In this document: piece by piece, positions 1,343-64,000 of the stretch
Layout of the letters: every line of letters begins with the position of its first letter
How positions within the stretch are numbered: the first letter of the stretch is position 1
Assembly (NCBI RefSeq): GCF_025526975.1
Contig: NW_026515695.1
Location: 124,001-188,000, forward strand
DNA length: 64,000 nucleotides
Direction of reading: 5' to 3'
From: Fimicolochytrium jonesii
Lineage: Eukaryota
Program-made: the position numbers and the translations under genes
Notes under the pieces: generated by a model
What the model was told of the DNA's origin: nothing
What the model saw: the letters and a program-made list of their open reading frames with translations, nothing else
Databases searched by the model: none

Positions 1343-4234
1343 CTACTGACTCTGCACCTGCCTCTTCAACCACGCCTCGCCTCCATTCTGCACGGCCGTC
1401 ACCACATCCTCCTCGCTAATATTCAGCTGTAGCTTCTGCGACCTGTCGCCTGCGCGGTGCTGCTCCAACAGGATAAGGCGCGAAGTGTGGAGTTGGGCGC
1501 AGATCCCGTAGAGATCGTAGGCGGTGGGGGCGGGGAGGTTGCCCATGTCGCAAAGGCGGTAGTGCTCGTCTGAGACCTGGATGAGTTGGGCGATCAGAAT
1601 GAGGTAAACCCAGTGCCATGAGTTTGTGTATTCGGACCACGTGACTCGCGATTACATACCGGCCCATACTCAACCTCCCCAATCCCCGCCCTTCTCACAC
1701 TCCTCACAAGCGCAACCAAAAACACCCTCTGATGCGTGCTCCCCCTCCCCACCGACTGCACCGCCACCGACGCAAACATCTCCTTGACAGCCTGGTCGAT
1801 CACCATCATCGTCACGAGCTTGTTGTCCTGCGTCCCGGCCTCTGCGGCGCTTTCCAGTTTCGCTTCCAGTATCTCTACGCCTCGACTGAATTGGGATGCC
1901 CTCGCGTTAGGCATCTCGTGAGAGCGTGGTGACGGTTTTTGAAGGGTGGACTGGTGTACTTACCGACAGATATCCAAGGCTCGTCTAGCGTCCCCAGACA
2001 CCGCTCCGATCTTTCTCGCACACAGCTCCACAGCATCCTTCTCAAAACACTGCACGCCTTCCAGTCGTGATTGTACAATCTCAATGAGCTGCTGGTGCGT
2101 GTATGCCGGGAAGTTGATCCTCGTCAATCCTGGGTAAATTACAACAGTCAGGAGATCGGATCATACCCTATTTGCGCGGAAGGAACCATCTTACCCAAAC
2201 GACTAGACACCTTGTTAATCATCATCCGTTCCGGCAAGTCCATCGTATTAGCAATGGCGACAACGATTAGCCGTGCATGTTGTAGATCCGGCCATGTCAG
2301 GAAATTGTACATGATCGAGTGGTTTTTCGTGACGAGGAGATCAATCTCGTCCATGAGAAGCACGCTGCATGATGAATCCACGTAATCAGCAAGGTGCTCC
2401 AGACACGGCGCAAGTTAGGTCAAAAATCCTTACGTGGGTTGTCGGTTCGGAGATGGAGTCGTGAAATGCTTCTGCAGCAAGGAAAGCGCATGTGTGGAGC
2501 TGACTTTCTTGCCCGTCAGGGCTTCCCACAGCACAGAGTAGGCTTGTGCGGGCTCCGTCAGCTTCATCCCGTTGATCTCTACGAAGCGGTATGGCGAGAG
2601 TTCCTGCAAAGGGAAGAGGGATTGAGATTTGCAAGTGTCTGTTTCGCGAAGCGTGGCCGGCGCGTACCTCATCTTCCACCGCCTTGTCGAGGGCTCGCAT
2701 GACTGCATGGACGGTAGCCGTTTTCCCCGTTCCCGGAACACCCGATATGTCTACGAAAACGCTTACGCTCAAACAAAGGAACTTCTTTCAATCGTAATGT
2801 GTGATCAGGCTGACACTTACACACGCAACCGCCCGAACCTTCCTCAATCGCACTCGTCAGCTCCGAATAGATCTGCGCATACTCGTCCTCTCTGCACGGC
2901 AGCGCGTCCGGGTACACAGACATATGCAATTTTTCCCGGGCGCGCTCAAACACCGATCTCGCCTTTGACCGCTCGAGTGCGCGTTCCGGTAAAGGAGTGG
3001 GTGCCAGTTTCGGCTTTCGCTTGCTAGGGGTGGCTCGTTTTCCGGAGGCACTCACGGCAGAAGCGTTGCGGGCGGTAATTCGCGGTGTCGGTGTGCATTG
3101 TTCGAGCGATTCGAGCGGCATTCGTCGGTTTGAGGGTGTGGCGGCTTTGTTTGGGGTATATGTGACTTCCTTTCGTTTCCGCTTCTTGATGGGTGTTGCG
3201 ACTTCAGCTTCTGATGCGTCCTCAGCTTCCTCGCCGTCTATTTGTTCCGCTTCCTCTGACGCGGGATGTTGCTGGAAGAGACGCCCATTTAGACAACGTT
3301 CAATTACCAAGACTATGCGCAAAGACCTTTGCGCACCTCCTCGCTTTCCTCTACGCTACTCCGCCCACGCGACTTCCTCGGTGGTGCAGCCTGTCCCACC
3401 TCTTCCTCCGTCCATCCCTCCTTCTTTCTCCGCCCCGTTGCCTTTCTCACGCTGTTCGGTTTCGCAGAAGCAGGCGTCGCAGCAGCAGTCTCATTCCTGG
3501 TCGTCCTCGCAGGTGTCCGCGCAGCAGCATGCTCCTTCGCCTTACCCTCCCTCTTCTGCATAGCCTCCGCCTTTTCAAAGGGTGGAGCGTCTTCATTCCT
3601 CCTAAAGGCCTCCCAATCCATCGGCCACGCCTTCACATCGCGGGCGGACCCGAGCGTACGGTGACAAAAGTAGATTCCGTCGGGGTTGGATTTCGGGTAT
3701 CGCGATCTGTATTCGTCCCGGGACAACACCTCGATCTTGCCGCAAATGTGCTCAATGTCCTCTTTGACCTCCTTCATGTCTGTATGGACGATTTCTGTCT
3801 AGGTGTATGATCATCAGCACGCAGTGTTCTTGAGATCGAAGCCGCCGGAGGAAAAACTTACCGGCCGGGTCAAGCTCCAGCGCCCGACACTTCCTCGTCC
3901 TCGCCGCCGTAGTCCCCAACTGCCTCTCCACCTCCGACGCAGCATAGATCCACCTAATATCCATCTTCCCAGTCCCTTCCTCATCGCGATAGCAGGCGAT
4001 TATCATCGCCTTGTACGGCTCATCCTGGTCCTCGGCCTCGACCAGGACACAGTCGTTGAGGTGGTAGTCTATCCCGTCTTTTCGGAAGCCGGGGTAGAGG
4101 AGTTTGTTGGAGAAGCCCTTTTTGGAGAGGCCGCGGGTGGTTGCGCGGCTGGGTGTGGCGGAGGATAGGGGGCCGTCTGCTGTACGGTTTAAGGGTTGGC
4201 CTGTGAAGGTGAACGACTCGGAGTTCCGCCGCAT
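1343..4234 (-). CDS. ORC1: Origin recognition complex subunit 1 (multi-exon)
   Basis: N-terminal BAH-like region ([18 protein letters not shown]); LPCREDEY; Walker [23 protein letters not shown]; Walker [31 protein letters not shown]; winged-helix C-terminus. Confidence 0.9.
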
Positions 4235-50692: not shown

Positions 50693-52009
50693 ATGCATGT
50701 TTACATCTTGAGGAATGGATTGCCGATTTACATATATCTGGATAGCACACCTGAATGCATCAGGAAGGAATGTTTCGATGGTGAGCACCTGCTCGCTACT
50801 GCTGCTTTCCGCGAGTTTCCTGAGGATGCCTTCCGCAGCGTGAAAGTTCTTCTGGAAAAAGGCTTTGTGGATGCGACACGGTTCGATGTCAGTTGCTTGA
50901 TGTATGTACCGGAGTGCAGCTGGCAAACGGTCGCTTCTCGGCTGGAATCACCATTTTGGATGCGATTCACGCCGCCACTGGACGGTGAGCCACATTTATC
51001 TCTAGTTGGTGAGCCAGACCTCTTGAGATACAAATGTATACTTCGGCATTGACTCTTAGAGCAGCGGCAATATCTCAAAGAAATGGCGCACATGATTCTG
51101 AAAGCTTCGGGAAGCATCAACGAACTAGACGTTTTCAGAGTGACAAATGAAGCCACTCAAGAAGCTTGCTGCGAATTTTTGCACTACAATACCGCAGCCT
51201 ACGATAGGCTTGCCCGTGTCTATCTTCTCAAAATGGCGGAAATACCGCCCGAGTGGGTCCGGAAGCGCGTGTCGCAAGGCTTCTCTATTGGTGGGTCGCA
51301 CCTAAAATACATCCTCAAAAATTGGCTATGTCGCCTGCCGACCGGGCTGGACGGGTTCACCAACTGTGACGAGGCCGACACGGCGTATATCGACGACCAT
51401 CCCATGATCTGGCTACTGAACGTGATACCATCTTCGCGATTGTTTCTGCGTAAGTTTCGTGACTATGGCTACGACGGGCTTCTCCCGGTCGTTCTGCATG
51501 CCGGCCTGAGATTCGAGCTAAAGGACGTGTGCGCATTTTTTGAGAAACGACCCCTGGCTTTCCTCAAAGACCTTCTCGGGGCGGACGAAAGCTGCTTTTT
51601 TCGCGACTCGGACGGTCTGCTCCCTTTTGATCCGCGCAAGGGGCCAGCGCTCTATGAAGCGGCGTTGGCACGGAGCGGACCTTGCGGGCGTAGTAAGCCA
51701 GACGTCCTCAGGCTCTTGGCGGAGGACGTTCGGGTGATACCGTCTGAGGAGAACATATCCGGTGTTGCTCGGTTGCTGTTACCACGTACTGTGCGAACCA
51801 TGCTGGACATTGCCCGTGACAGCTTACCACGAGACGATTTTGCGGAGATGCTTGCCTCTCTGGCTTCTTGCTGGGATGACGCGAACACTTTGGTTGCTCA
51901 GGTGGAGGGAGACTTTGACCCGTTGTTGAAGAGGCACGCGGCCACAAGGATGGTTAGAGTCTTTGCGGACCGCCAAAGGGAAGCACGCCAAGCTGATGGG
52001 AGCCTTTGA
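50693..52009 (+). pseudogene. Uncharacterised intronless gene split by one in-frame stop
   Basis: ORFs 50693-51052 and 51083-52009 are in the same frame, separated only by TGA at 51050-51052; helical-repeat-like composition; no family recognised. Confidence 0.45.
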
Positions 52010-52602
52010 CGCGAGCTTTGGAACCAAGAAAATGCATGGTGTTGGGCAGGGCAGGTTCCCACCCGACATATCATCTATTCCAACGTCCACCGATGGGACT
52101 TTCGTTCACCATCTGGATATTGTGAGCGATCGCGAGCCGCCTTGCTTCCTGCTGGGCTTCTACCATGCAGCATGTAAATTTGATTCGGGGCGGTCGTCAC
52201 TTCACGTCTCAATGGCGACTACGGGCTTCCACCATGCAGGCAACGACCCGTTTGGCAAGGTCAAGCTCCAACCTTGGTCGCTTCGAGCCAGCGCAAATCT
52301 ACAAACGCTCATGGTACACATCTACGAGACGCGACGTATGAGCCATTGGCACCATAGAGCTTGACTAGCGGTTCGTGGGCAAATATAGATCTTGCTAGTC
52401 ATATATCGTAGTTTGTGTTACTTTCCATTTGTCATATATCCTTACACCCGCACGTCAATGCTAAACATGGATTGGCGAGCCCTTGGCCACAGTCGGTTGG
52501 GTTGAGGGTTATAGCTACTTAGCCCACAAACCGGCGGATGCTGTTATCATTCACAAGCATGTCGCAACTCTGCGGGAGCGCGGCTGCGGGAGCGGGAGAC
52601 AT

Positions 52603-52790
52603 GGGCAGGTAGTTATTAACTTATGTGTCATTCTCGAGAGGCTAGCGGACCAGATTGCTCTACTTTGGGAACAATCTGGTGGTATGCGGCCGTGGTGCCG
52701 ATTCTGTACAAATAATCTACCTGCGTTATAAGTTACAAGTTGCCATCATCGGCGACGCCTCAGGCAGAGATACAATGATGTGGATGGCAG
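52603..52790 (-). ncRNA. Candidate Fanzor omegaRNA scaffold / transposon right end
   Basis: Immediately downstream of the Fanzor stop. Enclosing stem 52711-52724/52605-52617; 12-bp hairpin 52669-52680/52649-52660, perfect only on the minus strand (G.U); crossing pair 52728-52735/52617-52624; hairpin 52773-52780/52744-52751, also minus-strand G.U. Confidence 0.6.
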
Positions 52791-52828
52791 ATAACCACCA
52801 CGGAAAATGGGATGGGGTGAAATCTAGA

Positions 52829-53818
52829 CTACCTACGGTTACGGGAGAATGCGTCTGGTCTGCGGCCATTGCCAAACACCACCGAACGCACAATCGAGAG
52901 GAAATTCTTGGTGCTCAGGACGTCCCGATTGTGCACTCTCATCCATAGTCGTAGTGGTCGTCTTCCAGGAATCTCAAATGGCGTCCAGTCTTGGTTGATA
53001 CATTCGGGGTTGGGGCAACCCACCAATCCATGGACGTATTCCATTCTTCCCTTTCTAGCTTGCCATGGCCGAGATGACAGCCGGCGTCGGATGTTTTTCT
53101 TCACACGCCCGTGGCAGTCTGGGCACACCGAAGACGTTCGATACTCATCTAGCAAGTAGCATGGAATGCTGTTCCTTGCAAAGAGTGTGTGGAATCTGAT
53201 TTCCCCCCATGAGTGAGCGTATTATAATACATAAAAAACAATGACGGTCACTCACCCTTTGGTCTTTGATGACTCCTGAAAGCGCATGGTTTTTCCAGCG
53301 TCGCTCCAATCACCCAAGATGACCAAAAAATGCTTTCCATACAGCCGTCGCATGTTCTTGATGAGCTTGCTCTCAGACTTTTGCCGCAGTGAGAACGCCT
53401 TGAATCTGCAAGCCACGTGAATCTCATCCTGGTAAAACTCATCCAGGGCGGGATCTGGGATATGAATGTGAGCCCATGTATTACCAAATTTGAAAATCAA
53501 AGAAGTAGAACATCATACCCGCATGTTCGTAATCCACGATGAACGCTGAGAACGCCTCGATGTTCATGCTCTTGTGCGATGGAATATGTGCTTCCATCTC
53601 AGCGATGCCCGCATTGATCTTTCGCTCTGTCATGTCTCTTTGAAAGTACCGAGACTTTGTCTCGACCGCACGTTGATTGGATGTGTATCTGATATGGGGT
53701 GGTGCATTGTGAGGACGCTGCAACGGAATGTCGCCGCAACGGGGATGGCGGAGACAGGGGGCTGGCGGGCGGAGACGGGGGGCTGGCGGGTGGAGACGGG
53801 GGGATGGCGGGCGGAGAC
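52829..53818 (-). CDS. Fanzor (TnpB-derived RNA-guided nuclease), 3' half with two introns, interrupted upstream by an LTR retrotransposon
   Basis: Removing GT-AG introns 53455-53518 and 53196-53255 gives a continuous frame: IRYTSNQRAVETK...FY...LVILGDWS...KG...YLLDEYRTSSVCPDC...VHGLVGCPNPEC...HNRDVLSTKN...RPDAFSR (RuvC-II Glu, Zn finger, RuvC-III Asp). RuvC-I is not in the window. Confidence 0.88.
53746..53818. repeat. 21-bp minisatellite, ~3.5 copies (GGCGGAGACGGGGGGCTGGCG-like)
   Basis: Direct tandem copies abutting the LTR; in the Fanzor frame they read RLRPPAP repeats. Confidence 0.85.
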
Positions 53819-54355
53819 TGTTATGGACGACGCGCCCATACCATAAGCTTACCTACTGACAGCCGCCAATGTCAACCGCCAAATGTCAAACGCCAATGTC
53901 AATGTCAATGTCAGTGTCAATGTCAGTGTCAATGTCAATGTCAATGCCACTCCCCCTCTCTCCTCTCATTTCGCCAATCCTGTTGCAATATCGCCACTCC
54001 GCCTCTGTCCTCTCATTTCCCCAATTCCCCCTCGGCTCCTCCACACCCCCCACTGCTTCCTCATAGCCAGCAGCTGTAGCAATGCTCTCTACGCTCGCCA
54101 CGCACCTCCAGGAGCATAGCTGGCGCCCCCCAGTCCCCTCTTGTTGTTGTTGTTCTCTGATCTGCTGGGTTGCCTATCTATAAATAGCCGGCCTCTCTTT
54201 GTCCATTCCCTTCCTCCCCAGCAGATCAACCCCAGTTCTTCTCATCTCCTGTTCTAGTCCTTGTTTCTTGTTTCGCCAATAGAATCTCTTGTCGCCTATC
54301 ACACTCGCCCTGTCTTCTCTACTTCGCTTCTGCCCCCGTCGTCGAGATCATAACA
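53819..54355 (+). repeat. 5' LTR of element A (537 bp)
   Basis: TGTTATG...CATAACA perfect 7-bp terminal inverted repeats; TATAAA at 54179; (TGTCAA/TGTCAG)n microsatellite at ~53890-53946; followed by GTTTGATCTGCT. Confidence 0.92.
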
Positions 54356-58184: not shown

Positions 58185-58714
58185 TGTTATGGACGACGCG
58201 TCCATACCATGCGCTTACCTCATGACAGCATCCCAACAGTCAGTCAATGTCAATTCCCTGTCAAAACCTGACATCTGCCAAACCTCGCAGCCGCACGCAG
58301 CCGCGCTACCCCACACCTGCCACTGCCTTCATTTCTCCACGCAGCCGCACGTAGCCACACCTCCCAACACTCGGCGCTCACAAACCCTTCTCCATACTTC
58401 CCCACGTACCCGCCCACAGCCTCAGCGTAGCCACCCCATCCCCAGTCTTCTGTTTCTATGCTTCCCCACCCTTGGCGCTTCTCTTGGCTTCCCTCTCATT
58501 CCGTACCCTTCTGCTTCCCCACGCTTCCCCAGCCTTCCCAGAAAAACATAAACAGCCGCCTCCCCTGAGCTCCCCACTTCCTGATCCCCCAGCAGATCGA
58601 CACCAGTTCTTCCTAGTCTTGTTCTAGTTCTTGTTTCGGTCTGAATACCATTACCTGTCAACAACCTGCACCACAAGTCGCCTCTATTTCCATCGGCTCC
58701 GCCCATTCATAACA
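58185..58714 (+). repeat. LTR B copy 1 (530 bp)
   Basis: TGTTATG...CATAACA; shares ends and R-region motif with LTR A. Confidence 0.93.
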
Positions 58715-58765
58715 GTTTGATCTGCTCAACAACCCCCAGCCGCTGTACCTCCACGCCAAATCACC

Positions 58766-59692
58766 ATGTCCGACGCCCTTCCCCTCACGGCCGAAGCCTG
58801 GCAAGCCATGTGCAATGCGATTGACGAACTTCGAGCGCAGAATACCACCCTACAAGCCGAACTAGCGCAAACCCAGACCACTGCCCCTGCCACCCACGCC
58901 CCCGAACCCAAAATCAGTCTCCCAGACAAATTTGATGGCACCCGAAGCAAGTTCCGTGGGTTCCTCAACCAGATCCGGCTCATGTTCGCCCTCCAACCCA
59001 GGCGCTACCCCAACGATCAGACCAAGATACGAACTATTGGCACCTACCTCACTGGCACCGCCCAGGCCTGGCTGGCGCCCCTTGTCGAACAAGACCATCA
59101 TTCCCTTACGAACCTGGATGATTTCATCCAGCAAATGCAAGCAGCCTTTGGAGACAGTGACAGGATCCGCACGTCCGAAAACAAGCTCCAGAACCTTCGA
59201 CAAACCCGTGCAGCAACAGAGTATGTAGCTGAATTCCGACAGCTGCAATGCGATGTGTCGTGGAATGACCAGGCATTGATTGCCACCTTCCGTCGCGGCC
59301 TCAAAGAAGACGTCAAGGACTTAATGCTCACGATGCCCCCTACCGCCTCAATCGACACCGTGATGGAACAGGCCATCCAATGTGACAACCGATTGTTTGA
59401 GCGCCGTCTAGAGCAAAGCAGGAACCGACAGCCATATGTGCCAGTTACCACTAGCCCCACCCTCATGAGCCCCGACAACCGCCCAGACGACCCTATGATC
59501 ATTGACGCTGCTCGTCCGCGAGGACCCCTCACACCGCTAGAGCGCCAACACCGCATCACAAACAAACTTTGCCTCTACTGTGGTAAACCCGGCCACATAG
59601 CCAAACTCTGCCCGAACAAGATACGCACGGCGAATGTCGCGGTTAAGGAACCTGCACCCATCCAGGATTTTGCCCAAGTCCAGCTGCAGTAA
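58766..59692 (+). CDS. Gag, unit B1 (308 aa, intact)
   Basis: Retrotransposon gag domain PDKFDG...QTRAATEYVAEF...FRRGL and zinc knuckle CLYCGKPGHIAKLC. Confidence 0.92.
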   Translation: MSDALPLTAEAWQAMCNAIDELRAQNTTLQAELAQTQTTAPATHAPEPKISLPDKFDGTRSKFRGFLNQIRLMFALQPRRYPNDQTKIRTIGTYLTGTAQAWLAPLVEQDHHSLTNLDDFIQQMQAAFGDSDRIRTSENKLQNLRQTRAATEYVAEFRQLQCDVSWNDQALIATFRRGLKEDVKDLMLTMPPTASIDTVMEQAIQCDNRLFERRLEQSRNRQPYVPVTTSPTLMSPDNRPDDPMIIDAARPRGPLTPLERQHRITNKLCLYCGKPGHIAKLCPNKIRTANVAVKEPAPIQDFAQVQLQ

Positions 59693-60605
59693 AGGCCGAG
59701 CAGCTGGGCAACACCTGTCCTGGGCCTTCTCACCACGCAGTACTGCCAAGGGAGAAGCCACAATACCTTGCTCCAATCCTGGCATCTCCAGCAACACCCT
59801 TCTCCTGACCACCAACAATGTCAATCTCCTATCTGAGATACCCTCACCCATGCGGACTTTGGGCCCATCCTCACCATTCGAGTACCCTGTTACCCTGCAG
59901 ATATCGGCCCAGCGAGCTCCAGTTCAGCTTTCAGCACTACTCGACACCGGTGCGATGTCGTGCTTCATCGACGAAAGTTATGCCCGCAAGCACCGCATCC
60001 CACTTGTCAAGAAGGAGGACCCCATTGCGCTTGAACTGGTTGACGGACGTCCCAGCCATGCGGGCTCCATTACCCATCACACCCAACCTTTGGGCATGTG
60101 GGTCAACGACCATTTTGAGGAGGTGGTATTCCATGTGACATGTTCCCCGCATGCGCCAATCATCCTGGGGCTTCCCTGGTTTGAGCTCCATGATGTGGAG
60201 CTACATTGGAAGACTTCGCACTCTTTGCGTCCGCTGCCATTGCGGTTTTGGACAATACGCCTCCTGGGATGCCCTGCCAACAGAACCTAGCCCGAAGCCC
60301 TCAAGAACCCCTGAACCTCTGATCCGTATCCATCAAGACGAGATTTCAGTCTCCCTAGCCCAGACACCCAACACACTGGACCCAGCACCCACACCGATCC
60401 ACGTATCGTTTATCAGCGCCCCAGCTTTCCGTGTGGCAGGCAAGGCATGACCAGGCATTCATTGCCTACGCCAATCCGACCAAGTCAGATTCCCAAGCCC
60501 TGGCGACCACTCCTCCAAAAGATCCGAAGGCCATCATTCCTGAAGAATACCAAGATTTTGCGGACGTCTTCACCAAGAAGAACGCGGATACCCTCCCAGA
60601 GCACC

Positions 60606-61135
60606 TGTTATGGACGACGCGTCCATACCATGCGCTTACCTCATGACAGCATCCCAACAGTCAGTCAATGTCAATTCCCTGTCAAAACCTGACATCTGCC
60701 AAACCTCGCAGCCGCACGCAGCCGCGCTACCCCACACCTGCCACTGCCTTTATTTCTCCACGCAGCCGCACGTAGCCACACCTCCCAACACTAGGCGCTT
60801 ACAAACCCTTCTCCATACTTCCCCACGTACCCGCCCACAGCCTCAGCGTAGCCACCCCATCCCCAGTCTTCTGTTTCTATGCTTCCCCACCCTTGGCGCT
60901 TCTCTTGGCTTCCCTCTCATTCCGTACCCTTCTGCTTCCCCACGCTTCCCCAGCCTTCCCAGAAAAACATAAATAGCCGCCTCCCCTGAGCTCCCCACTT
61001 CCTGATCCCCCAGCAGATCAACACCAGTTCTTCCTAGTCTTGTTCTAGTTCTTGTTTCGGTCTGAATACCATTACCTGTCAACAACCTGCACCACAAGTC
61101 GCCTCTATTTCCATTGGCTCCGCCCATTCATAACA
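60606..61135 (+). repeat. LTR B copy 2 (530 bp)
   Basis: Direct repeat of 58185-58714 with a few substitutions. Confidence 0.93.
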
Positions 61136-61186
61136 GTTTGATCTGCTCAACAACCCCCAGCCGCTGTACCTCCACGCCAAATCACC

Positions 61187-62113
61187 ATGTCCGACGCCCT
61201 TCCCCTCACGGCCGAAGCCTGGCAAGCCATGTGCAATGCGATTGACGAACTTCGAGCGCAGAATACCACCCTACAAGCCGAACTAGCGCAAACCCAGACC
61301 ACTGCCCCTGCCACCCACGCCCCCGAACCCAAAATCAGTCTCCCAGACAAATTTGATGGCACCCGAAGCAAGTTCCGTGGGTTCCTCAACCAGATCCGGC
61401 TCATTTTCGCCCTCCAACCCAGGCGCTACCCCAACGATCAGACCAAGATACGAACTATTGGCACCTACCTCACTGGCACCGCCCAGGCCTGGCTGGCGCC
61501 CCTTGTCGAACAAGACCATGATTCCCTTACGAACCTGGATGATTTCATCCAGCAAATGCAAGCAGTCTTTGGAGACAGCGACAGGATCCGCACGTCCGAA
61601 AACAAGCTCCAGAATCTTCGACAAACCCGTGCAGCAACAGAGTATGTAGCTGAATTCCGACAGCTGCAATGCGATGTGTCGTGGAATGACCAGGCATTGA
61701 TTGCCACCTTCCGTCGCGGCCTCAAAGAAGACGTCAAGGACTTAATGCTCACGATGCCCCCTACCGCCTCAATCGACACCGTGATGGAACAGGCCATCCA
61801 ATGTGACAACCAATTGTTTGAGCGCCGTCTAGAGCGAAGCAGGAACCGACAGCCATATGTGCCAGTTACCACTAGCCCCACCCTCATGAGCCCCGACAAC
61901 CGCCCAGACGACCCTATGATCATTGACGCTGCTCGTCCGCGAGGACCCCTCACACCGCTAGAGCGCCAACACCGCATCACAAACAAACTTTGCCTCTACT
62001 GTGGTAAACCCGGCCACATAGCCAAACTCTGCCCGAACAAGATACGCACGGCGAATGTCGCGGTTAAGGAACTTGCACCCATCCAGGATTTTGCCCAAGT
62101 CCAGCTGCAGTAA
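61187..62113 (+). CDS. Gag, unit B2 (308 aa, intact)
   Basis: Near-identical to B1 Gag; six amino-acid differences visible in the ORF track. Confidence 0.92.
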   Translation: MSDALPLTAEAWQAMCNAIDELRAQNTTLQAELAQTQTTAPATHAPEPKISLPDKFDGTRSKFRGFLNQIRLIFALQPRRYPNDQTKIRTIGTYLTGTAQAWLAPLVEQDHDSLTNLDDFIQQMQAVFGDSDRIRTSENKLQNLRQTRAATEYVAEFRQLQCDVSWNDQALIATFRRGLKEDVKDLMLTMPPTASIDTVMEQAIQCDNQLFERRLERSRNRQPYVPVTTSPTLMSPDNRPDDPMIIDAARPRGPLTPLERQHRITNKLCLYCGKPGHIAKLCPNKIRTANVAVKELAPIQDFAQVQLQ

Positions 62114-62270
62114 AGGCCGAGCAGCTGGGCAACACCTGTCCTGGGCCTTCTCACCACGCAGTACTGCCAAGGGAGAAGCCACAATACCTTGCTCCAATCC
62201 TGGCATCTCCAGCAACACCCTTCTCCTGACCACCAACAATGTCAATCTCCTATCTGAGATACCCTCACCC

Positions 62271-63024
62271 ATGCGGACTTTGGGCCCATCCTCACCATTC
62301 GAGTACCCTGTTACCCTGCAGATATCGGCCCAGCGAGCTCCAGTTCAGCTTTCAGCACTACTCGACACCGGTGCGATGTCGTGCTTCATTGACGAAAGTT
62401 ATGCCCGCAAGCACCGCATCCCACTTGTCAAGAAGGAGGACCCCATTGCGCTTGAACTGGTTGACGGACGTCCCAGCCATGCGGGCTCCATTACCCATCA
62501 CACCCAACCTTTGGGCATGTGGGTCAACGACCATTTTGAGGAGGTGGTATTCCATGTGACATGTTCCCCGCATGCGCCAATCATCCTGGGGCTTCCCTGG
62601 TTTGAGCTCCATGATGTGGAGCTACATTGGAAGATTCGCACTCTTTGCGTCCGCTGCCATTGCGGTTTTGGACAATACGCCTCCTGGGATGCCCTGCCAA
62701 CAGAACCTAGCCCGAAGCCCTCAAGAACCCCTGAACCTCTGATCCGTATCCATCAAGACGAGATTTCAGTCTCCCTAGCCCAGACACCCAACACACTGGA
62801 CCCAGCACCCACACCGATCCACGTATCGTTTATCAGCGCCCCAGCTTTCCGTGTGGCAGCAAGGCATGACCAGGCATTCATTGCCTACGCCAATCCGACC
62901 AAGTCAGATTCCCAAGCCCTGGCGACCACTCCTCCAAAAGATCCGAAGGCCATCATTCCTGAAGAATACCAAGATTTTGCGGACGTCTTCACCAAGAAGA
63001 ACGCGGATACCCTCCCAGAGCACC
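62271..63024 (+). pseudogene. Aspartic protease / truncated pol of unit B2 (B1 equivalent at 59850-60605 has two extra 1-nt insertions)
   Basis: LLDTGA catalytic motif, IILGLPW; ends at LPEH where the next LTR begins. Confidence 0.85.
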
Positions 63025-63554
63025 TGTTATGGACGACGCGTCCATACCATGCGCTTACCTCATGACAGCATCCCAACAGTCAGTCAATGTCAATTCCCTG
63101 TCAAAACCTGACATCTGCCAAACCTCGCAGCCGCACGCAGCCGCGCTACCCCACACCTGCCACTGCCTTTATTTCTCCACGCAGCCGCACGTAGCCACAC
63201 CTCCCAACACTAGGCGCTTACAAACCCTTCTCCATACTTCCCCACGTACCCGCCCACAGCCTCAGCGTAGCCACCCCATCCCCAGTCTTCTGTTTCTATG
63301 CTTCCCCACCCTTGGCGCTTCTCTTGGCTTCCCTCTCATTCCGTACCCTTCTGCTTCCCCACGCTTCCCCAGCCTTCCCAGAAAAACATAAATAGCCGCC
63401 TCCCCTGAGCTCCCCACTTCCTGATCCCCCAGCAGATCAACACCAGTTCTTCCTAGTCTTGTTCTAGTTCTTGTTTCGGTCTGAATACCATTACCTGTCA
63501 ACAACCTGCACCACAAGTCGCCTCTATTTCCATTGGCTCCGCCCATTCATAACA
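63025..63554 (+). repeat. LTR B copy 3 (530 bp)
   Basis: Appears identical to copy 2. Confidence 0.93.
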
Positions 63555-63605
63555 GTTTGATCTGCTCAACAACCCCCAGCCGCTGTACCTCCACGCCAAA
63601 TCACC

Positions 63606-64000
63606 ATGTCCGACGCCCTTCCCCTCACGGCCGAAGCCTGGCAAGCCATGTGCAATGCGATTGACGAACTTCGAGCGCAGAATACCACCCTACAAGCCGA
63701 ACTAGCGCAAACCCAGACCACTGCCCCTGCCACCCACGCCCCCGAACCCAAAATCAGTCTCCCAGACAAATTTGATGGCACCCGAAGCAAGTTCCGTGGG
63801 TTCCTCAACCAGATCCGGCTCATTTTCGCCCTCCAACCCAGGCGCTACCCCAACGATCAGACCAAGATACGAACTATTGGCACCTACCTCACTGGCACCG
63901 CCCAGGCCTGGCTGGCGCCCCTTGTCGAACAAGACCATGATTCCCTTACGAACCTGGATGATTTCATCCAGCAAATGCAAGCAGTCTTTGGAGACAGCGA
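63606..64000 (+). CDS. Gag, unit B3 (runs off window)
   Basis: Same start and sequence as B2 gag. Confidence 0.9.
   Translation, partial: MSDALPLTAEAWQAMCNAIDELRAQNTTLQAELAQTQTTAPATHAPEPKISLPDKFDGTRSKFRGFLNQIRLIFALQPRRYPNDQTKIRTIGTYLTGTAQAWLAPLVEQDHDSLTNLDDFIQQMQAVFGDS

What the first reader, a model, noticed from the sequence alone, without database searches (positions are those of the whole stretch)
52603..52790. Structured omegaRNA candidate with pseudoknot topology just 3' of the Fanzor stop
Seen on the minus strand: an enclosing stem GCAGGUAGAUUAUU (52724-52711) / AAUAACUACCUGC (52617-52605), and an inner 12-bp hairpin ACCAGAUUGUUC/GAGCAAUCUGGU. There is also an 8-bp pairing UAACUUAU (52735-52728) / AUAAGUUA (52624-52617) that crosses the enclosing stem (A-B-A'-B'), and an upstream hairpin CAUCAUUG/CGAUGAUG. 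Two stems are perfect only as minus-strand RNA (G.U rather than A.C), the same strand as the Fanzor. Established: TnpB/Fanzor guide RNAs are transcribed from the element's right end, with the guide read from flanking DNA. Inference: the scaffold ends near 52603 and the guide begins about AUGUCUCCCGCUCCCGCAGC. The scaffold could still serve intact Fanzor copies in trans.
Basis: partly seen in the sequence, partly recalled or inferred. Interest (0 to 1): 0.8.

Follow-up and report, generated by a model that had tools for sequence, protein, structure and literature searches.

The report
Fanzor guide RNA, boundary misplaced
A broken copy of a known fungal RNA-guided nuclease transposon (Fanzor1) ends about 130 bases earlier than first proposed, so its guide RNA is likely an ordinary 75-base scaffold like the published SpuFz1 one, and the eye-catching stems and "pseudoknot" lie in neighbouring DNA, possibly a separate small mobile element.

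Summary
The gene is the 3' part of an intron-split Fanzor1, close to SpuFz1 and interrupted by a Ty3 retrotransposon nest. Other copies in two soil metagenomes match the window only down to the TA at 52735-52734 and then run into unrelated flanks (4 of 4 contigs that reach that point). The element ends there, not at 52603. Counting back 75 nt from that TA gives a scaffold (52808-52734) of SpuFz1's length. It has SpuFz1's 5' leader and a 7-pair stem-loop 1 with three double-sided pair changes. The predicted guide is 52733-52719. The enclosing stem, the 12-bp hairpin and the pseudoknot pairing need flank sequence; only the 'upstream hairpin' is inside the element. Fanzor1 guide RNAs are reported to lack the pseudoknot (PMC10711439). 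The flank 52603-52733 is a real, unexplained fold-back (z -4.9), possibly a MITE cut by the insertion. Expression is untested. The scan has noted this Fanzor family at other loci of this genome, and similar right ends in other genomes. Verdict: new member of a known kind.

The parts
53689..53818 (-). 3' part of a C-rich Fanzor intron; the LTR retrotransposon nest is likely inserted in it
   Evidence: Acceptor at 53689. Two paralogue gene models that retain this intron match 53733-53641 (84%) and 53733-53650 (89%) and carry a similar C-rich stretch upstream.
53519..53688 (-). Fanzor1 exon (starts at the RYTSNQR motif; the RuvC-I Asp exon is not in the window)
53455..53518 (-). 64-nt GT-AG intron
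   Evidence: the spliced product equals public gene model P0074 over 226 of 226 residues
53256..53454 (-). Fanzor1 exon
53196..53255 (-). 60-nt GT-AG intron
52829..53195 (-). Last Fanzor1 exon with RuvC-II Glu (DEYR), zinc-finger/TNB region, RuvC-III Asp (NRD) and stop TAG 52831-52829
   Evidence: Best PDB match SpuFz1 8gkh, E 1.9e-29; motifs checked
52734..52808 (-). Predicted omegaRNA scaffold, 75 nt, ending in the TA
   Evidence: 3' end from the copy boundary. 5' end from the UUUUCC leader, by eye against the SpuFz1 rows (14 of the first 19 positions identical). Length.
52780..52801 (-). Stem-loop 1: 7 pairs with one bulge, loop UUAUCUG
   Evidence: The 30-nt piece folds at z -3.7, ensemble frequency 0.91; pair probabilities 0.48-0.81 in the 75-mer; similar stem-loop in L001
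52744..52780 (-).
   Evidence: pair probability about 0.7
52736..52772 (.). Likely terminal inverted repeat, about 37 bp or more
   Evidence: One X1 contig matches only 52734-52769 and is unlike on both sides, as a left end or ghost would be; its loose end continues the repeat for 3 more bases, then 7 after a 2-nt gap (read by eye)
52734..52735 (.). TA at the element end, likely the target-site duplication and the last two scaffold bases
   Evidence: 3 contigs diverge exactly before 52734 and one before 52731; Spu-1 has putative TA duplications (PMC3627910)
52719..52733 (-). Predicted 15-nt guide, from flank
   Evidence: Inference from the boundary and from the 14-15-nt extension reported for SpuFz1 (PMC10432273 section 7)
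52603..52733 (.). Flanking fold-back holding the enclosing stem, the 12-bp hairpin and the 8-bp partner; not part of the conserved element end; identity open
   Evidence: z -4.92 minus, -1.98 plus; best of 302 tiles, tile chosen after the fact; no Rfam match
53819..54355 (+). 5' LTR of a Ty3/Gypsy element at the start of a retrotransposon nest that runs to the window end
   Evidence: TGTTATG...CATAACA ends; gag, RT and RNase H domains follow; an X1 contig starts at 53819 with another flank

Best explanation
This is the right end of a broken SpuFz1-like Fanzor1 transposon copy that ends at the TA 52735-52734, and its guide RNA is likely a 75-nt scaffold (52808-52734) plus about 15 flank bases (52733-52719), while most of the flagged stems lie in flanking DNA. 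SHOWN: Fanzor1 identity, the two introns, the interruption by a Ty3 nest, the copy boundary, and the position of each stem relative to it. INFERRED from SpuFz1: a read-through or local transcript is bound by Fanzor protein and trimmed to about 90 nt. The leader and stem-loop 1 would dock on RuvC/TNB. A terminal stem (U35-A75, G36.U74, U37.G73, A38-U72) would sit on WED. The flank-derived guide would direct cutting of the empty allele. This copy probably cannot supply nuclease, because its RuvC-I exon is separated by more than 10 kb of retrotransposon, so any activity would need protein from another copy. The flank fold-back would be trimmed off and play no part in the guide RNA.
For: Boundary: of 6 contigs laid on 52590-52900 (X1 five, X2 one, X3 none), the 4 that reach the end all diverge at 52731-52734 into unlike sequence, in two studies. 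Scaffold length from leader to TA is 75 nt, equal to SpuFz1's (PMC10432273). By eye against row ID16: 14 of the first 19 positions are identical, and so are A30-U31-C32, U35-G36 and U74-A75. Stem-loop 1 keeps 7 pairs with three double-sided changes and one single-sided change. The leader-loop motif occurs once in the 64-kb window, here (0.04 expected; the pattern was drawn from this site, so this is only a rarity check). A relative at 47% identity, L001, has a similar leader and stem-loop just after its RuvC-III region. Fanzor1 RNAs are reported to include TIR and TSD, to end in a stem and to lack the pseudoknot (PMC10711439). Seven-pair SL1 is reported as the conserved Fanzor1 feature (PMC11423790).
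Against: No RNA data: no RNA run was listed, so expression and ends are untested. The boundary rests on 4 short metagenome contigs, one probably a left end, not on paralogues of this genome (none held). The 75-mer as a whole does not fold better than shuffles (z -0.6). The SpuFz1-like terminal stem is not favoured in free RNA: -15.0 forced against -18.6 kcal/mol free, pair probability about 0. The loop has 7 nt with U at the place of SpuFz1's G20. L002 fits the motif poorly (5-bp stem, z -0.3), and automatic alignments of the three ends were poor, so no formal covariation count was made.
Confidence: 0.82

Rival explanations
1. One reading: a roughly 190-205-nt pseudoknotted scaffold ends at 52603 and the guide starts at 52602, perhaps in a subfamily that captured a 131-nt extension.
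For: The stems are real and above chance. The minus strand folds better relative to shuffles than the plus strand. Fanzor1 RNAs vary from 75 to 150 nt.
Against: 4 of 4 contigs that reach 52734 leave the window sequence there. A complete SpuFz1-sized scaffold ends at that TA. The pseudoknot is reported lost in Fanzor1. The two crossing helices share a base and are joined by 3-nt and 0-nt links, which makes joint formation sterically doubtful (inference). No TA follows 52603.
Confidence: 0.05
2. For the flank only (compatible with the best explanation): 52603-52733 is most of a small non-autonomous DNA transposon (MITE-like) whose terminal repeat begins at 52603-52624. The Fanzor element likely inserted at a TA inside its other terminal repeat. 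The 8-bp 'pseudoknot' is then the leftover half of that repeat, and the 13-bp arm at 52724-52711 a subterminal copy of the terminal motif.
For: It explains two coincidences seen in the sequence: the 8-bp arm starts exactly at the insertion TA, and its partner directly abuts the partner of the enclosing stem, so 52605-52624 reads as one repeat unit. Fold-back is similar on both strands with DNA parameters (-19.0 and -18.0 kcal/mol).
Against: No second copy in the window or in viral contigs. No target duplication can be checked, as the far side is not in the window.
Confidence: 0.4
3. For the flank only: it is an independent structured RNA (minus-strand rod of about 120 nt) of the host, unrelated to Fanzor.
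For: z -4.92 on the minus strand against -1.98 on the plus strand; one G.U in the 12-bp hairpin.
Against: No Rfam match at E up to 5 or 10, no tRNA, no C/D or H/ACA boxes by eye, no homologue for covariation. A single decayed base in a DNA palindrome gives the same G.U asymmetry.
Confidence: 0.12
4. The 75-nt right end is only DNA terminal-repeat sequence in a dead copy and is not made or used as RNA at this locus.
For: The gene is split by a retrotransposon nest. In S. punctatus the native small RNA was reported at four loci only.
Against: Leader and stem-loop 1 lie outside the repeat, are nearly identical in other copies (1 difference over 87 nt in the X2 contig) and keep SpuFz1-type pairing. 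Protein-less 'ghost' scaffolds of SpuFz1 work in assays.
Confidence: 0.35

Closest known systems
SpuFz1 omegaRNA and Spu-1 element of Spizellomyces punctatus (PMC10432273; PMC3627910; PDB 8gkh, 9ceu-9cez)
   Same: Fanzor1 protein (46% identity of paralogue P0007 to SpuFz1); TIR element ending in TA; 75-nt scaffold that includes TIR and TA; UUUUCC leader, 7-pair stem-loop 1, A-U-C linker, U35-G36 and terminal UA at the same positions; Ty3 insertions in some copies.
   Different: Spliceosomal introns (SpuFz1 is one ORF); different TIR sequence, about 37 bp or more against 30-33; 7-nt against 6-nt loop; stem-2 region unrelated in sequence, with a competing hairpin; TAM unknown; this copy broken.
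PpFz1 and GtFz1 omegaRNAs (PMC11423790)
   Same: Seven-pair first stem-loop; the PpFz1 rows show the same leader and loop motif.
   Different: More distant proteins (PpFz1 E 2e-9); other lengths (75 and 150 nt in total).
TnpB and Fanzor2 reRNAs with a pseudoknot (PMC10711439)
   Same: Right-end-derived scaffold with flank-derived guide.
   Different: Their pseudoknot pairs the last scaffold bases with an apical loop inside the scaffold. The pairing here uses guide bases and flank 110 nt beyond the element, and Fanzor1 is reported to lack the pseudoknot.
Fimicolochytrium jonesii Fanzor proteins listed in Table S2 of PMC10711439
   Same: Same protein family; 33 occurrences of the genus name, and the one shown in full is KAI8816250.1 = P0099, 94% identical to this copy.
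   Different: In the passages and two supplement rows I saw, only protein sequences are given; no RNA or element end.

Membership tests
Fanzor1 (SpuFz1-like) element | Protein homologous to Fanzor1 with TNB/zinc finger and RuvC-II Glu and RuvC-III Asp | tested here: met
Fanzor1 (SpuFz1-like) element | Complete RuvC triad in this copy | tested here: not met
   RuvC-I DPG/DPN exon absent from the window; tblastn finds no 5' part. The copy is broken; 20 of 56 close gene models carry all three motifs (motif match only).
Fanzor1 (SpuFz1-like) element | TIR-bounded element with TA at its ends, variable flank | tested here: met
   Right end met by 4 contigs; the TIR inferred from one left-end-like contig. 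This copy's own left end is not in the window.
Fanzor1 omegaRNA (52808-52719) | Conserved non-coding right end between stop and element end | tested here: met
   Contigs cover 52734-52869 with 1-3 differences each
Fanzor1 omegaRNA (52808-52719) | Seven-pair first stem-loop after the 5' leader | tested here: met
   by-eye comparison
Fanzor1 omegaRNA (52808-52719) | Terminal stem that includes the TSD, next to the guide | tested here: inconclusive
   Four pairs can form in SpuFz1 register but are not favoured in free RNA
Fanzor1 omegaRNA (52808-52719) | Expressed small RNA bound by Fanzor; guide-directed, TAM-dependent cleavage | not testable with these tools
   No RNA run listed; needs bench work
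   Conservation ends at 52734
MITE-like element (flank 52603-52733) | Terminal inverted repeats | tested here: inconclusive
   13-bp and 8-bp inverted arms are present; one end would be cut by the insertion
MITE-like element (flank 52603-52733) | Multiple genomic copies and a target-site duplication | not testable with these tools
   No genome held; none in the window

The most novel reading that the evidence does not exclude
This copy belongs to a subfamily that has captured the 131-nt fold-back as part of its right end. It makes a roughly 205-nt scaffold that ends at 52603 and either has a pseudoknot (reported lost in Fanzor1) or switches between two guide boundaries, with the extension masking the inner guide.
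Probability: 0.05. Interest if true: 0.6.

Novelty: new member of a known kind. Interest (0 to 1): 0.24.

Why it matters
Modest. It gives the predicted scaffold, TA boundary and guide for a large, recently expanded Fanzor1 family related to the genome editor SpuFz1. The proteins are already listed in a published table; I found no description of their RNA (2 paper searches; supplement searches). It adds a natural stem-loop 1 variant with compensatory pairs, and a testable orthologue that may have another TAM. It does not show a new RNA architecture; the pseudoknot claim fails.

Tried and rejected
Whole genome: not held, so paralogous ends could not be aligned directly. Sequencing runs: no RNA holder listed; this is no evidence on expression. 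No contig of X1-X3 covered 52300-52730; absence of cover is not used as evidence. Exact 22-nt terminal pattern in JGI metagenomes: 0. 17-nt pattern in viral contigs: 8 matches, none extending beyond 17-25 nt, treated as chance. Flank patterns in viral contigs: 0. Related loci by protein: 25 in metagenomes, 0 of 20 candidates in viral contigs, 1 in genome contigs. I looked downstream in 18 of the 26. Among the close relatives only L001 and L002/L003 (one locus twice) had enough flank; L005 and L006 end at the stop; 8 were left out because the match did not reach the C-terminus. The motif scan hit L001 and, loosely, L016 and L021; L002 was placed by eye. MAFFT alignments of the ends were out of register, so no covariance model or pair count was built. 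Rfam and ARAGORN: nothing. A seeming likeness between DNA beyond 52603 and the C-rich intron was chance (184 of 500 random pieces scored as well). No paralogue gene model reads into the flank (only weak E 0.03-0.05 hits from distant proteins). The guide has no second site in the window at up to 3 mismatches. Look-ups of earlier findings by sequence and place gave nothing for this stretch. TAM could not be read: the loose end at 52734 in X1 is a mix of two contigs (agreement 0.62). The supplement search of PMC10530073 found not even 'Spizellomyces', so it is uninformative. One PDF of PMC10432273 was too large to read and one had no text.

Full report
Observation. The 188 nt fold better than shuffles on the minus strand (z -2.79) than on the plus strand (z -0.76). 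Three perfect stems of 8 bp or more are present; 2 of 2000 shuffles reach that, while a single such stem occurs in 279 of 2000. All three lie within 52605-52735.

The gene. Three exons (53688-53519, 53454-53256, 53195-52829) joined over 64-nt and 60-nt GT-AG introns give an open frame of 244 residues plus the stop. It equals public gene model P0074 over 226 of 226 residues, and 56 of the 111 proteins then held, P0074 included, are 85% or more identical. The 13 hits of the first search are all named Fimicolochytrium jonesii, a chytrid. The closest solved structure is SpuFz1 (E 1.9e-29), then PpFz1. The RuvC-II Glu and RuvC-III Asp motifs are present. The RuvC-I exon and everything 5' of it are not in the window. 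The gene is cut within a C-rich intron, also seen in two paralogue models, by an LTR starting at 53819 and a Ty3/Gypsy nest that runs to the window end. This copy is therefore probably not a source of nuclease (inference). Twenty of the 56 close models carry all three catalytic motifs, by motif match only.

Where the element ends. No genome was available, so I used contigs of three soil metagenome runs that hold parts of the stretch. On 52590-52900, six contigs were laid: five from X1, one from X2, none from X3. Four reach the low end. Three diverge exactly before 52734 and one before 52731, into unlike sequence. None goes more than 3 bases past the TA at 52735-52734. One of the four matches only 52734-52769 and is unlike on both sides, as expected of a left end or ghost, which suggests a terminal repeat of about 37 bp or more. 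Spu-1 has 33-bp TIRs and putative TA duplications (PMC3627910, passages). This rests on four short contigs from two studies, not on this genome's own paralogues.

The likely guide RNA. SpuFz1's RNA is a 75-nt scaffold spanning the right IR plus 14-15 variable bases (PMC10432273, section 7 and passages). Its sequences are in supplementary file 5 (part 1 of 2 seen). In the window, the stretch from a UUUUCC leader to the TA is also 75 nt (52808-52734). By eye, 14 of the first 19 positions equal row ID16, and so do A30-U31-C32, U35-G36 and U74-A75. Stem-loop 1 (52801-52780) has 7 pairs and one bulge. Against SpuFz1, three pairs are the same, three change on both sides and one on one side; the loop is one base longer. 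It folds at z -3.7 on its own. Seven-pair SL1 is reported as the shared Fanzor1 feature, the rest being unconstrained (PMC11423790, section 5). A metagenome relative, L001, shows a similar leader and stem-loop at the matching place (z -1.3); L002 fits poorly. Which stem-2 form the protein binds is open. The predicted guide is 52733-52719.

The 8-bp crossing arm is the terminal TA plus the first six guide bases. The 5' arm of the enclosing stem starts within the guide. The partners and the 12-bp hairpin lie wholly in flank. None can be a family feature if flanks vary. Yoon et al. report that Fanzor1 RNAs lack the TnpB/Fanzor2 pseudoknot, include TIR and TSD in the scaffold, and end in a stem (PMC10711439, passages). 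The crossing helices also share base 52617 and have 3-nt and 0-nt links.

The flank. 52603-52733 is strongly self-complementary: z -4.92 minus and -1.98 plus, and best of 302 tiles, though its limits were chosen after seeing the fold. It has no Rfam or tRNA match and no second copy in the window. My preferred reading (0.4) is a MITE-like element whose second terminal repeat was cut at TA by the Fanzor insertion. This accounts for the 8-bp arm starting exactly at the TA and for its partner abutting the enclosing stem's partner. It predicts what lies beyond this copy's left end, which I could not read. An independent RNA (0.12) and a captured extension (0.05) remain possible.

How it most likely works. 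Shown: element identity, boundary, broken state, stem positions. Inferred from SpuFz1: a transcript over the right end is protected by Fanzor made from another copy and trimmed to about 90 nt. It would guide cleavage of the empty site, favouring repair from the filled allele. Protein-less ghost scaffolds of SpuFz1 are active in assays, so use in trans is plausible but untested. Native small RNA was reported at only four S. punctatus loci, so this locus may be silent.

Novelty. The protein family is in Table S2 of PMC10711439 (33 occurrences of the genus; two rows seen). Two paper searches (listings, 19 of 20 and 40 of 178 shown) gave one paper with both 'Fimicolochytrium' and 'Fanzor', unrelated in its passages (PMC12247965). 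Supplements of PMC10432273 had no mention, one file unreadable. Introns in Fanzors are known (PMC10530073, passages). PMC13434818 (passages) and a supplement search of PMC11423790 added nothing on this family. Earlier notes of this scan describe other copies in this genome and similar right ends elsewhere; they are unchecked and not counted as support. Splice consensus, LTR end rules, snoRNA boxes and MITE anatomy are from my own knowledge. Verdict: a real feature, an ordinary Fanzor1 right end with the scaffold in another place than proposed; new member of a known kind; interest 0.24.

Noticed in passing
window 52603-52733: Strong fold-back of about 120 nt directly outside the Fanzor end; the 8-bp arm starts exactly at the insertion TA. 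Possibly a MITE cut by the insertion; unexplained.
   Followed up: partly
window 58185-64000: Tandem array, about 2420-bp period, 99% identical, of an LTR-gag-protease unit of a second Ty3 family inserted into the pol gene of the first; the units shown stop before reverse transcriptase.
   Followed up: no
window 51053-52009 (+): ORF of 318 codons with no Pfam match above cut-off and no homologue but itself among 4649 candidates of similar length.
   Followed up: partly
window 52770: All four contigs that cover this base carry G where the window has A (plus strand), so this copy has a private change in the stem-2/TIR region.
   Followed up: partly
L001:3190-3230: In this relative the omegaRNA-like stem-loop 1 overlaps the last codons of the Fanzor frame (stop at 3226), unlike the window, where it starts 20 nt after the stop.
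   Followed up: no
L009-L013, about 95 nt after the stop: Five copies of a distant Fanzor1 share a 3' tail that ends sharply after a T-rich run, another right end with variable flank.
   Followed up: no
L026: A Fanzor1 fragment on a 3.3-kb contig of a bacterial MAG, likely eukaryotic contamination.
   Followed up: no
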